From assembly GCA_963698855.1 (NCBI GenBank), contig CAVOSK010000006.1, forward strand, positions 80,661 to 144,660: a stretch of 64,000 nucleotides of DNA, read 5' to 3'. Position 1 is the stretch's first letter, and the number at the start of each line of letters is the position of its first letter. The notes beneath the pieces were generated by a model. It was not told the DNA's origin, did not search any database, and worked only from the letters and a program-made list of their open reading frames with translations. Source of the stretch: an uncultured beta proteobacterium. Lineage in GTDB: Bacteria; Pseudomonadota; Gammaproteobacteria; Burkholderiales; Thiobacillaceae. Positions 60,659-63,721 of the stretch are shown piece by piece. The position numbers and the translations under genes are program-made.

Positions 60659-61450
60659 TTACTGGGCGGGTGCGGCCGGTGCTGCTGTGGGTGCCGGCAT
60701 GAAGGCAGCCGGGTTGAACATCTGCAGCAATACGTTCGGGTCGAACGGGTTCGGGTAGGCGGCAGGTGCGCCCGCAGCCGGAGCGGCAACCGGAGCAGCC
60801 ATTGCGCCATAGGTGGCCGGATTCAACCAGGTGCCCCAGGTGCCATAGGTGGCGGGATTCATCGAGGCGCCCATCCAGCTGGTGTACAGAGCGGGGTTCA
60901 GGGGCTGCATCGACAACTGCATCAGACGCGGGTCCATTGGAGCCATCATCCACTTCATGTACATCGCGGGATTCAGGGTCTGCATGGCCATGTTGAGCGT
61001 TTGCGGATCCAGCGGCGACATCATCCAGCGCATGTATTTGCCGGGATCGAGCATCGGGGCCATCATCGCAGTGTAGAAGTTGGGATCCATCGAAGCGGCC
61101 ATCCACTTCATGTACATGTCGGGGTCGGCAAACTGCATGTAGTTGGCCAGCGAGCGCGGATCCATCATCGAACCCATCATCTTGTACCAGTTGCCTGGCT
61201 CCATCATGTTGATGCCCATCTGCGAGTAGAAGCTGGGCTCGGTCACGGCGTTGAACCAGGGCACGAACACCTTGGGGTCACGGTAGGCCGACGCATTGCG
61301 GGTAAAGTCGGTCATGCGCTCCAGCCACTGGGCACTGGTTTGCGGCGTGGCGGGGGCTGCGGCAGGGGCTGCAGCGGGTGCGGTACCATTGGCGAAAGCA
61401 GCGGAAACGGAAACCATTCCAAGGGCGAGAACAAGGGATTTCATTTTCAT
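60659..61450 (-). CDS. Secreted Met-rich repeat protein of unknown function
   Basis: GAAGGAG RBS, Sec signal ending AFA, 12 tandem 12-13-aa [DNE]P repeats, Ala/Pro tails, own terminator. Confidence 0.88.
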   Translation of the reverse strand: MKMKSLVLALGMVSVSAAFANGTAPAAAPAAAPATPQTSAQWLERMTDFTRNASAYRDPKVFVPWFNAVTEPSFYSQMGINMMEPGNWYKMMGSMMDPRSLANYMQFADPDMYMKWMAASMDPNFYTAMMAPMLDPGKYMRWMMSPLDPQTLNMAMQTLNPAMYMKWMMAPMDPRLMQLSMQPLNPALYTSWMGASMNPATYGTWGTWLNPATYGAMAAPVAAPAAGAPAAYPNPFDPNVLLQMFNPAAFMPAPTAAPAAPAQ

Positions 61451-61488
61451 GGACGACTCCTTCGGGGTTGATCAAACAAACAAGACAC

Positions 61489-61519
61489 AAACAAGATACG
61501 TAGATCCAGTATCTTGTTT
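61489..61519. promoter_or_regulatory. Perfect 11-bp inverted repeat in the predicted 5' UTR
   Basis: AAACAAGATAC-N9-GTATCTTGTTT. Confidence 0.6.
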
Positions 61520-61540
61520 ATATCAGCATATTGTCAATGC

Positions 61541-61581
61541 CTTATATTGGAGTTTGTTTATACTTGATTGATAATAATCAA
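61541..61581 (-). promoter_or_regulatory. FNR-type class II promoter for the Met-rich gene
   Basis: Perfect TTGAT-AATA-ATCAA at 61568-61581 and a minus-strand -10 TATAAG at 61546-61541, placing the box near -41.5. Confidence 0.75.
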
Positions 61582-61582
61582 T

Positions 61583-62038
61583 ATGAAATTCAACCAACTT
61601 GTCTACATCGGCGCGGTCAACTGGTTGCATCCCGCATGGAATGGTGCTTTTTACCCAGATGACCTGCCGGATGACTGGCTGTTGTCGTATTACAACACTC
61701 AATTTAATACAGTCTACCTGCCCGAATCGATCTGGCAGACCGTTCCGGGGTCCACCTGGGCGGTATGGTTGAACGAGACACAGGAAAGCTTCGTATTCGT
61801 GCTGGGGCCGGGTGCCTCGGAGTGCGCCGAGCCCGCATCGGAGCGCGTGTTGCTGGCGACTCAATCTTGGATGGCCGAGCACGTCTGGTGGCTGGATGAA
61901 CTCCCCGACTTGCGTGCTCTGACCCATCGTATCTCCCAACACGCGGTAACGGGGGAGCCTCTGTTTGTGTTCAGCCGCAGCGGGAATCTCGCCTTGATGG
62001 AAGAAGCAGATACCCTGAGACAGGTGATGGGTTACTAG
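61583..62038 (+). CDS. Short DUF72-like protein
   Basis: W.HPAWNGAFYPDDLPDDWLLSYYNTQFNTV resembles the DUF72 N-terminus. Confidence 0.6.
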   Translation: MKFNQLVYIGAVNWLHPAWNGAFYPDDLPDDWLLSYYNTQFNTVYLPESIWQTVPGSTWAVWLNETQESFVFVLGPGASECAEPASERVLLATQSWMAEHVWWLDELPDLRALTHRISQHAVTGEPLFVFSRSGNLALMEEADTLRQVMGY

Positions 62039-62091: not shown

Positions 62092-62940
62092 ATGGGCATT
62101 CACTTACAAGTAATTGGGTGCGTTTTCTTGCAAAACGACAATCTGGTCGAAATCGAAGATGTCGCATTTGGCTATGGAGATCGGCAGGTTCTGAAGGGAA
62201 TCAATCTGACTGCCAAACGCGGGCAGGTTATCGCTATCATGGGTAGCAGCGGTTGCGGAAAAACCACACTCCTGCGGCTGATTGGTGGGCAGATCAAGCC
62301 CCGCCAGGGAGAAGTGCGCGTGGCAGGCGAGTCGCTTGGCCATCTCAACCAGAATGGCCTTTACCGGTTGCGTCGCAAGATGGGCATGCTGTTCCAGTTC
62401 GGCGCGCTGTTTACCGACATGTCGGTATTCGACAACGTCGCATTCCAGTTGCGCGAGCATACCGACCTGCCCGAAGACGCCATTCGTGACCTGGTCCTGA
62501 TGAAATTGCATGCGGTGGGCTTGCGCGGCGCAGCGCAGTTGATGCCTGCTGAACTGTCCGGGGGCATGGCGCGGCGCGTGGCGCTGGCACGTGCGATAGC
62601 TCTGGAGCCCGCACTGGTGATGTTCGACGAGCCGTTCGCAGGGCTTGACCCCATTTCGCTTGGCGTGACCGGCAACTTGATTCGCCGACTCACCGATACT
62701 CTGGGGCTAACGTCACTGGTAGTGACCCATGACGTGCATGAATCGCTGAAAATCGTCGATTACGTCTATTTCGTTTCTGAAGGCGTGGTCGTGGCCGAGG
62801 GGACGGCGGATGAGATCCGTGCCTCCGACTTGCCTTATGTCCATCAATTCGTGCATGGCGAGGCCGATGGCCCGGTGCCTTTCCACTATTCGGCACCATC
62901 CTATGCAGATGACCTGCGTCTGGGCGTCCGGCATGCTTAG
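62092..62940 (+). CDS. mlaF: Mla ABC transporter ATPase (exact start uncertain)
   Basis: [43 protein letters not shown]. Confidence 0.93.
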
Positions 62941-63721
62941 GCAGGCCATTGAAAACCTGGGAAACCGCACCCTGGAGGGGGTGTGGCGCATCGGTTATGC
63001 AACCCGCTTCTTTGTGGCGATTCTGCTGCATTCGGGTACGGCATTTCGCCGCTTCGGCCTCACCATCCGCGAAATGTATTTCAGTGGCGTGCTTTCGCTC
63101 GTCATCATTCTGGTCTCCGGCTTGTTCGTCGGCATGGTGCTGGGTTTACAGGGCTACGAAACCCTGCAAACCTATGGCTCGGAAGAGGCCCTCGGCATAC
63201 TGGTGGCGTTGTCGCTGGTACGGGAGTTGGGGCCGGTAGTGGCTGCCTTGCTGTTTGCCAGTCGTGCCGGCAGTGCAATCACGGCGGAAATCGGCCTGAT
63301 GAAGGCAACCGAGCAACTGTCGGCGATGGAGATGATGGCGGTGGATCCGATCGCCCGCGTGGTGGCGCCGCGCTTCTGGGCTGGCGTCATTTCGATGCCG
63401 TTGCTGGCAGCGCTGTTTTCGGCGATGGGGATTTTCGGCGGCTATCTGGTAGGGGTGCAACTGATCGGCGTGGATGAAGGTTCATTCTGGTCGCAAATGC
63501 AAAGTGCGGTCGATTTCGAGCAGGACATCATGAATGGCGTCATCAAGAGCGTGGTGTTCGGCGTCGCCATCACTGCCATTGCGTTGTACGAAGGCTACGA
63601 TGCCCCCCCGACTGCCGAGGGGGTATCAGGTGCCACTACCCGGACCGTGGTGGCCTCCAGCCTGGCCGTGCTCGCACTGGATTTTGTTTTGACTGCATTC
63701 ATGTTCCGGGGACTCAACTGA
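62933..63721 (+). CDS. mlaE: Mla ABC transporter permease
   Basis: [34 protein letters not shown]. Confidence 0.95.

What the first reader, a model, noticed from the sequence alone, without database searches (positions are those of the whole stretch)
61533..61585. Perfect FNR box positioned to activate the Met-rich gene and block the divergent gene
Seen: TTGAT-AATA-ATCAA at 61568-61581 (centre 61574.5) and a minus-strand TATAAG at 61546-61541, implying a TSS near 61533 and the box near -41.5. The box ends 1 bp before the ATG of the DUF72-like gene, which lacks an obvious RBS. Established: the FNR/Anr/Dnr consensus is TTGAT-N4-ATCAA, and class II activation is centred at -41.5. Inference: anoxia or NO induces the Met-rich protein while repressing the opposite gene, tying the novel protein to anaerobic metabolism.
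Basis: partly seen in the sequence, partly recalled or inferred. Interest (0 to 1): 0.65.

Follow-up and report, generated by a model that had tools for sequence, protein, structure and literature searches.

The report
Lineage-specific FNR-type operator on divergent promoters
The perfect FNR-type palindrome is real and looks like a genuine regulator-binding site that evolved recently in one Thiobacillus sub-lineage. It sits on the core promoter of the neighbouring DUF72-like/mla operon and about 73 bases upstream of the Met-rich gene's conserved promoter, so the proposed -41.5 activation is not supported.

Summary
TTGATAATAATCAA at 61568-61581 is exact. It is the only such box in the window (0.03 expected) and one of five in the 3.0-Mb genome (4 in non-coding DNA vs 0.6 expected).

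The genome encodes two CRP/FNR regulators with the E--SR recognition helix: one Cys-bearing and FNR-like, one DNR-like.

The box is absent from most of about 70 syntenic orthologous loci. In the close sub-lineage (11 loci) the core TTGA-N6-TCAA is invariant, while the inner bases and flanks vary. Orthologues of the FNR-like regulator were found only in the two box-bearing genomes among 13 tested.

The -41.5/TATAAG reading is not supported:
- All orthologues share a strong promoter for the Met-rich gene (TTGACA 61537-61532, -10 61513-61508), which puts the box near -73.
- TATAAG is part of a conserved block just upstream of that -35.
- One relative has an 11-bp deletion that breaks -41.5 but keeps the helical phase.

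The box does cover the -10 (GATAAT 61570-61575) and start of a conserved, apparently leaderless promoter of the DUF72-like/mlaFED operon. The best-supported action is therefore repression of that operon.

This is a new member of a known kind, of modest interest.

The parts
61568..61581 (.). Exact CRP/FNR-family palindrome TTGATAATAATCAA, flanked by A...T
   Evidence: The core TTGA-N6-TCAA is invariant in 10 aligned sub-lineage loci, while the inner 6 nt (1/6 invariant) and the adjacent 21-nt spacer (5/21 invariant) vary.
61570..61575 (+). GATAAT, predicted -10 hexamer of the DUF72-like/mla promoter. It lies inside the box, 7 nt before the ATG.
   Evidence: A [G/T/C]ATAAT hexamer lies 6-7 nt upstream of the DUF72-like ATG, with no Shine-Dalgarno, in dozens of orthologous loci. 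A leaderless transcript is an inference.
61547..61552 (+). TTGGAG, possible weak -35 for the DUF72-like promoter (17-nt spacer to GATAAT)
   Evidence: Read directly from the sequence. Weak and inferred.
61583..62038 (+). DUF72-like gene (151 aa), first gene of the probable DUF72-like/mlaFED operon
   Evidence: Synteny with mlaF holds in about 70 of 80 loci. No promoter or terminator consensus lies between it and mlaF.
62092..62940 (+). mlaF-like ABC ATPase, followed by mlaE-like (62810-63721) and mlaD-like (63726 onward) genes
   Evidence: PF00005. The mlaE/D names come from order and sequence and rest on my own knowledge.
61532..61537 (-). TTGACA, consensus -35 of the conserved Met-rich gene promoter (P1)
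   Evidence: Invariant in nearly all syntenic orthologues.
61508..61513 (-). GATACT, -10 of P1 (18-nt spacer). Predicted TSS about 61501, which puts the box centre near -73.
   Evidence: The aligned hexamer in relatives is GAATAT/AATATT. The TSS is inferred, not measured.
61541..61546 (-). It is part of the conserved block AATATAAGGCATTGACA just upstream of the P1 -35.
   Evidence: It reads TATCAG/TATTAG in box-less orthologues and TATAAG in the sub-lineage, including L092/L093/L099, whose boxes are degenerate.
61457..61462 (-). AAGGAG Shine-Dalgarno of the Met-rich gene
   Evidence: invariant.
60659..61450 (-). Met-rich secreted repeat protein gene (263 aa)
   Evidence: No Pfam family.

Best explanation
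The palindrome is a genuine, evolutionarily young operator for a CRP/FNR-family regulator with an E--SR recognition helix.

Likely regulator: the sub-lineage-specific, Cys-bearing FNR-like protein at genome C7:1231747-1232460. The DNR-like protein at C1:147841-148530 is the alternative.

Origin: it arose in one Thiobacillus sub-lineage by adding a right half-site TCAA next to the conserved -10 hexamer (TT-GATAAT) of the DUF72-like/mlaFED promoter.

Main action: it spans about -15 to -2 of that apparently leaderless promoter, with its centre near -8.5. A bound dimer should therefore exclude RNA polymerase and repress the DUF72-like/mla operon when the regulator is active.

The Met-rich gene: it is driven by its own near-consensus sigma-70 promoter, which all orthologues have. 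The box lies near -73 (about -62 in L004), so any effect there would be upstream, class I-type stimulation, not class II activation at -41.5.

Shown:
- the sequence and its statistics;
- the regulators' recognition helices;
- the conservation pattern;
- co-occurrence of the box with the regulator;
- the conserved promoter elements.

Inferred:
- both TSSs;
- binding;
- the direction of regulation;
- the signal (O2, redox or NO).
For: 1. Exact box: 1 in the window vs 0.03 expected. Genome non-coding DNA holds 4 vs 0.6 expected; the core occurs 20 times vs 9.2.
2. Two regulators carry the E--SR helix. One is ETASR, with best PDB match Aliivibrio fischeri FNR at 3e-17 and Cys aligned to FNR C20, C23 and C122. 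The other is PETFSR, identical to Pseudomonas aeruginosa DNR, at 9e-29.
3. Footprint: in 10 aligned sub-lineage loci the core is 8/8 invariant, the inner bases 1/6 and the flanking spacer 5/21. L098 adds another variant with an intact core. The -10 itself decays in some loci (GAGAAC, GACGAA) while TTGA/TCAA persist.
4. Orthologues of the FNR-like regulator (93% and 87% identity) occur only in the genomes of L001 and L004. These are the only box-bearing genomes among 13 tested.
5. Other FNR-type boxes in the genome lie at expected targets: dnr/napD, a PdsA-like dihaem cytochrome c, ccoN and cydA.
6. A [G/T]ATAAT hexamer 6-7 nt before the DUF72-like ATG, with no SD, recurs across orthologues.
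7. The P1 elements are conserved in all orthologues.
8. L004's 11-bp deletion keeps the box fixed relative to the DUF72-like start and in helical phase with P1, but breaks the -41.5 geometry.
Against:
- The sub-lineage is shallow, so invariance and regulator co-occurrence are partly confounded by shared ancestry.
- Two of the eight core bases (the GA of TTGA) are also the first bases of the -10 hexamer.
- The FNR-like protein lacks the C29-equivalent ligand and sits beside arsS, so it may be a local regulator with another target set.
- -73 is 1-2 nt off the textbook class I positions.
- None of the five paralogues of the Met-rich gene in this genome has a box.
- The closest relative, L001, has a 1-mismatch box.
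Confidence: 0.5

Rival explanations
1. FNR/Anr/Dnr bound at -41.5 activates a class II promoter whose -10 is TATAAG (61546-61541, TSS about 61533). This induces the Met-rich protein under anoxia or NO while blocking the divergent gene.
For: - The geometry fits within 1 nt in the window and in 10 sub-lineage loci: 21 nt lie between the box and TATAAG.
- TATAAG (5/6 match to TATAAT) replaces the TATCAG/TATTAG of box-less orthologues, so it is a sub-lineage change that co-occurs with the box.
Against: - TATAAG lacks the conserved final T.
- It belongs to an invariant block abutting the consensus -35 of P1, and it also occurs in L092/L093/L099, whose boxes are degenerate.
- L004 keeps a perfect box with an 11-bp shorter gap, which puts the box near -30 relative to TATAAG.
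- A near-consensus promoter immediately downstream makes an activator-dependent promoter unnecessary, and the two would overlap.
Confidence: 0.12
2. The palindrome is a fortuitous by-product of an AT-rich leaderless promoter. TT+GATAAT already gives a left half-site. No CRP/FNR protein binds it, and its conservation reflects shallow divergence or promoter constraints.
For: - More distant orthologues show TTGATAAT-like half-sites without the right half (L006/L096).
- At one mismatch allowed, the window shows no enrichment (1 vs 1.05 expected).
- The box is absent from most orthologues.
- About 0.6 exact boxes are expected by chance in the genome's non-coding DNA.
Against: - TCAA in the discriminator region has no promoter role, yet it is invariant across 9 distinct variants while neighbouring bases vary.
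- The -10 decays in some loci while the core does not.
- An exact box in this region occurs in 0.11% of shuffles.
- The box co-occurs with the FNR-like regulator.
Confidence: 0.25
3. The site is read by the NO-sensing DNR-like regulator and belongs to a nitrogen-oxide response, as the reader's 'NO' option suggests.
For: - The DNR-like protein has the same PETFSR helix as P. aeruginosa DNR.
- DNR-like orthologues are present in both box-bearing genomes tested.
Against: - The three clearest DNR-type sites in this genome (dnr/napD, PdsA-like cytochrome c, C7:214372) have the extended CTTGA-N6-TCAAG form. This matches the published DNR consensus CTTGATnnnnATCAAG (PMC1274295). This box has A...T flanks.
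- DNR-like orthologues also occur in genomes without the box (G054, G063).
- No nirS was found.
Confidence: 0.1

Closest known systems
FNR/Anr operators of Escherichia coli and Pseudomonas (TTGAT-N4-ATCAA)
   Same: The half-sites and spacing are identical to the consensus. The flanks are A/T-rich. The genome encodes a Cys-bearing regulator with the E--SR helix. Similar boxes lie upstream of ccoN and cydA in this genome.
   Different: The candidate regulator lacks the C29-equivalent cluster ligand and is encoded next to arsS. The site is confined to one Thiobacillus sub-lineage. O2 dependence is untested.
Repression by an FNR site overlapping the core promoter (e.g. E. coli fnr autoregulation, with a site over the TSS; own knowledge)
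   Same: The box covers the predicted -10 and +1 of the DUF72-like/mla promoter, with its centre at about -8.5.
   Different: The target promoter appears leaderless, and its TSS is inferred only from conserved -10-to-ATG spacing.
Class I (upstream) activation by CRP/FNR at -61.5/-71.5
   Same: The box lies at about -73 (window and most relatives) or about -62 (L004) from the conserved P1 promoter. The difference is one helical turn.
   Different: The positions are 1-2 nt off the canonical ones. P1 is near-consensus and needs no activator. FNR class I promoters are rare (own knowledge).
DNR/NnrR boxes of denitrifying beta-proteobacteria (CTTGATnnnnATCAAG; Rodionov et al. 2005, PMC1274295)
   Same: The core palindrome is the same, and a DNR-like regulator is present.
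   Different: The C...G flanks seen at the genome's other DNR-type sites are missing. The neighbouring genes are not nitrogen-oxide genes.

Membership tests
FNR/Anr/DNR-type operator | 14-bp palindrome TTGAT-N4-ATCAA | tested here: met
   Exact match at 61568-61581.
FNR/Anr/DNR-type operator | The same genome encodes a cognate CRP/FNR regulator with the E--SR recognition helix | tested here: met
   Two of four CRP-family ORFs carry it: ETASR and ETFSR.
FNR/Anr/DNR-type operator | Conservation of the site upstream of orthologous genes | tested here: inconclusive
   Absent from most of about 70 syntenic loci. The core is invariant in the close sub-lineage of 11 loci, which is also where the FNR-like regulator occurs.
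FNR/Anr/DNR-type operator | Regulator binding and O2- or NO-dependent expression of the flanking genes | not testable with these tools
No binding assay is possible.
Class II FNR-dependent promoter | Box centred at -41.5 from a real TSS, with a functional -10 and no need for a -35 | tested here: not met
   The geometry to TATAAG fits. However, TATAAG lacks the final T, sits in a block conserved without the box, and lies 11 bp closer in L004. The conserved promoter P1 puts the box near -73. The TSS was not measured.
Canonical FNR ([4Fe-4S] O2 sensor) for the candidate regulator | Four cluster ligands equivalent to C20, C23, C29 and C122 | tested here: inconclusive
   The C20, C23 and C122 equivalents align. 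C29 is Val. An extra Cys lies at residue 5. NCBIfam Fnr scores 70.9 bits, below the cut-off of 228.
DNR-type site | Extended consensus CTTGATnnnnATCAAG | tested here: not met
   The flanks are A and T. Three other sites in the genome do have the C...G flanks (PMC1274295).
Leaderless promoter (DUF72-like/mla) | -10 hexamer 6-7 nt upstream of the start codon, no Shine-Dalgarno, TSS at the A of ATG | tested here: inconclusive
   The spacing and the lack of an SD are conserved in dozens of orthologues. The TSS itself was not measured.

The most novel reading that the evidence does not exclude
A recently acquired FNR-like regulator with a non-canonical Cys pattern, encoded beside arsS, has recruited new operators in one Thiobacillus sub-lineage. 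It did so by completing half-sites that pre-existed in -10 hexamers. This would wire the outer-membrane lipid-asymmetry (Mla) operon, and possibly the abundant Met-rich periplasmic protein and a prepilin/histidine-kinase pair, to a redox or O2 signal. It would be a traceable case of de novo regulon growth on a leaderless promoter.
Probability: 0.3. Interest if true: 0.45.

Novelty: new member of a known kind. Interest (0 to 1): 0.3.

Why it matters
If confirmed, this would be a clean natural example of how a transcription-factor site is born: a -10 hexamer supplies one half-site and four more bases complete the palindrome. The birth would coincide with the regulator's arrival in the lineage.

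It would also link Mla-dependent outer-membrane maintenance in a sulfur oxidiser to oxygen or redox status.

For the Met-rich protein, the result mainly removes an argument. The box does not tie that protein specifically to anaerobic metabolism. Its promoter is a strong, conserved, apparently constitutive one that most orthologues use without any FNR box.

Tried and rejected
- DNA search for the dnr/napD intergenic region in 25 relatives, to calibrate site conservation: only one partial hit, so uninformative.
- DNA search of 40 genus genomes with the window's intergenic region: only the DUF72-like coding part matched. The sampled species are outside the close sub-lineage.
- Paralogues of the Met-rich gene in the same genome (5): none has a box within 2 mismatches.
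- RNA fold of the Met-rich 5' leader: no better than shuffles (z = 0.64), so an RNA-structure explanation was dropped.
- Genome-wide search for the conserved promoter block/inverted repeat, to find a regulon: it is unique to this locus.
- Activation of the + strand from the box (a TSS about 41 nt downstream, inside the DUF72-like gene): no usable -10 there, so rejected.
- Literature: no paper links Thiobacillus Met-rich proteins or mla to FNR.

Full report
**Observation**

The window reads ...cttgaTTGATAATAATCAAtATGaaa....
- The exact palindrome TTGAT-AATA-ATCAA lies at 61568-61581.
- The ATG of a 151-aa ORF is at 61583.
- cttata at 61541-61546 reads TATAAG on the minus strand.

No Shine-Dalgarno precedes the ATG at 61583. 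The Met-rich gene (60659-61450, minus strand), by contrast, has AAGGAG.

The box is the only exact match in the window (0.03 expected). With one mismatch allowed there is no enrichment (1 vs 1.05).

The assembly is 3.0 Mb, 63% G+C, in 7 contigs. It holds five exact boxes.
- Four lie in crudely defined non-coding DNA, against 0.6 in dinucleotide shuffles (P about 0.01).
- The core TTGA-N6-TCAA occurs there 20 times against 9.2 +/- 2.9.
- Shuffles of the local 135-bp, 34% G+C intergenic region give an exact box in 0.11% of cases.

**The neighbourhood**

- The minus-strand gene encodes a 263-aa signal-peptide protein made of Met/aromatic repeats, with no Pfam family. Its family is widespread in Thiobacillaceae and Hydrogenophilales and is often fused to OmpA-C or BON domains.
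- The plus-strand gene is a short protein with a sub-threshold match to the N-terminus of DUF72.
- It is followed by mlaF-, mlaE- and mlaD-like genes, with no promoter or terminator consensus in between.
- The order mlaF <- DUF72-like <- | -> Met-rich ... <- cysS is kept in about 70 of 80 genome loci. The intergenic regions are therefore orthologous and can be compared.

**Can anything read the box?**

The genome has four CRP/FNR-family ORFs. Two carry the E--SR recognition helix that reads TTGA.
- One is at C7:1231747-1232460 (ETASR).
  - Its best solved relative is Aliivibrio fischeri FNR.
  - Cys residues align with FNR C20, C23 and C122, but Val replaces C29 and there is an extra Cys at residue 5.
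  - It scores far below the NCBIfam Fnr cut-off.
  - It lies directly upstream of arsS (TIGR04167, 450 bits) and an FAD-dependent oxidoreductase.
- The other is at C1:147841-148530. It is closest to Pseudomonas aeruginosa DNR and has the same PETFSR helix.

FNR-type boxes with at most one mismatch lie upstream of:
- the DNR-like gene and a divergent napD;
- a PdsA-like dihaem cytochrome c;
- ccoN;
- cydA.

The motif is therefore in use in this organism.

The dnr/napD site, the cytochrome c site and a third site at C7:214372 share the extended form CTTGA-N6-TCAAG. This is the DNR consensus of Rodionov et al. 2005 (PMC1274295). The box under study has A...T flanks. So does a nearly identical box, ATTGATAAAAATCAAT, between a prepilin-type gene and a histidine kinase at C1:54448.

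**Conservation**

Within 350 nt upstream of the Met-rich orthologues, most loci have no box even at two mismatches. Only L004 has an exact box, and L001 has one mismatch.

Metagenome contigs added the close sub-lineage.
- WIN, L001, L004, L085-L090, L098, L102/L105 and L128 all carry TTGA-N6-TCAA immediately next to the DUF72-like start.
- There are nine distinct variants of the inner and flanking bases.
- In the alignment of ten of them, the eight core columns are invariant. Only 1 of 6 inner columns and 5 of 21 adjacent spacer columns are invariant.
- In some loci the overlapping -10 hexamer has decayed (GAGAAC, GACGAA), yet TTGA and TCAA persist.
- TCAA lies in the discriminator region, where box-less orthologues are G+C-rich and variable.

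This is the usual footprint of a CRP/FNR-type site.

More distant orthologues (L006, L096) have only the left half, TTGATAAT. That is TT plus the -10 hexamer. The site therefore seems to have been completed by gain of the right half.

**Co-occurrence with the regulator**

Thirteen genomes were reached through the loci.
- Clear orthologues of the FNR-like protein (93% and 87% identity) exist only in the genomes of L001 and L004. These are the only two with the box. The best hit in the other eleven is 40%.
- DNR-like orthologues occur in those two genomes but also in two box-less ones.
- The second A/T-flanked box at C1:54448 is exact in the L001 genome and has two mismatches in the L004 genome.

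This explains why most orthologues lack the box. The signal is confounded by shared ancestry and MAG incompleteness.

**Which promoter?**

All orthologues, with or without the box, share these elements upstream of the Met-rich gene:
- the block AATAT[C/T/A]AGGCATTGACAATAT[A/G]CTGATAT;
- a -10 17-18 nt after the TTGACA (GAATAT/AATATT; GATACT in the window);
- a small inverted repeat;
- AAGGAG.

In the window this is TTGACA 61537-61532 and GATACT 61513-61508. The predicted TSS is about 61501, which puts the box centre near -73.

- It lacks the final T of a -10.
- It is also present in L092/L093/L099, whose boxes are degenerate.
- In L004 an 11-bp deletion between the box and TATAAG would put the box near -30 for the proposed promoter.
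- That same deletion leaves the box unchanged relative to the DUF72-like start and one helical turn closer (about -62) to the conserved promoter.

The -41.5 coincidence is real in the window. The comparative evidence is nonetheless against class II activation. At most it is compatible with class I-type stimulation of a promoter that looks strong on its own.

**The divergent gene**

Across dozens of orthologues, a GATAAT/TATAAT/CATAAT hexamer lies 6-7 nt upstream of the DUF72-like ATG with no Shine-Dalgarno. Examples are gggATAATcgcgccATG and cccTATAATcgggcggATG.

This points to a leaderless transcript starting at the ATG.

In the window:
- the hexamer is GATAAT at 61570-61575, inside the box;
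- TTGGAG lies 17 nt upstream;
- the box spans about -15 to -2.

A bound dimer would therefore occlude RNA polymerase. It would extend to the mla genes if they are co-transcribed, as the conserved order and the lack of signals suggest.

**Verdict**

| Reading | Probability |
|---|---|
| Functional CRP/FNR-family operator (any action) | about 0.65 |
| Specific reading: repression of the DUF72-like/mla operon, at most class I influence on the Met-rich gene | about 0.5 |
| Fortuitous palindrome | about 0.25 |

The signal is open. It could be O2 or redox through the non-canonical FNR-like protein, or NO through the DNR-like one.

That fits a strong constitutive promoter, but I did not test it.

This is a new member of a well-known kind of element. 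What is modestly interesting is its recent birth on a -10 hexamer together with its probable regulator.

Noticed in passing
window 61516-61549: A block conserved across Thiobacillaceae surrounds the -35 of the Met-rich gene promoter: AATATCAG-gcaTTGACAatata-CTGATAT, an inverted repeat of about 7 nt with arms 15 nt apart. It could be an operator for an unknown regulator or an UP-like element. The block is unique in this genome.
   Followed up: partly
window 61466-61492 (5' leader of the Met-rich gene): A tract of TTGTTTG-like repeats varies greatly in length among close relatives. It is short in the window and tens of nt longer in L088/L128/L001. This may be slippage-prone DNA in the leader. 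Its significance is unknown.
   Followed up: no
genome C1:54448-54461 (outside the window): A second exact A/T-flanked box, ATTGATAAAAATCAAT, matches the studied box at 15 of 16 bases. It lies between a prepilin-type gene and a histidine-kinase gene. It is exact in the L001 genome and has 2 mismatches in the L004 genome.
   Followed up: partly
genome C1:148588, C1:155088, C7:214372: Three boxes have the extended DNR form CTTGA-N6-TCAAG(G). They lie between the DNR-like gene and napD, upstream of a PdsA-like dihaem cytochrome c, and at an unannotated site. No nirS (PF02239) was found in the 93%-complete assembly.
   Followed up: partly
genome C7:1228867-1232460: The FNR-like regulator gene is followed by arsS (arsenosugar radical SAM protein, TIGR04167) and a pyridine-nucleotide-disulfide oxidoreductase. 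A small rhodanese-like ORF lies between the regulator gene and arsS.
   Followed up: partly
genome C1:191574-192871: The ccoN-like COX1 match is split over two adjacent frames: profile positions 1-102 and 110-436. This suggests a frameshift or an assembly error.
   Followed up: no
window 61583-62038 and orthologues: The DUF72-like protein (about 150 aa, only the N-terminal part of DUF72) is a conserved first gene ahead of mlaF throughout Thiobacillaceae and Hydrogenophilales. It appears to be translated from a leaderless mRNA.
   Followed up: partly
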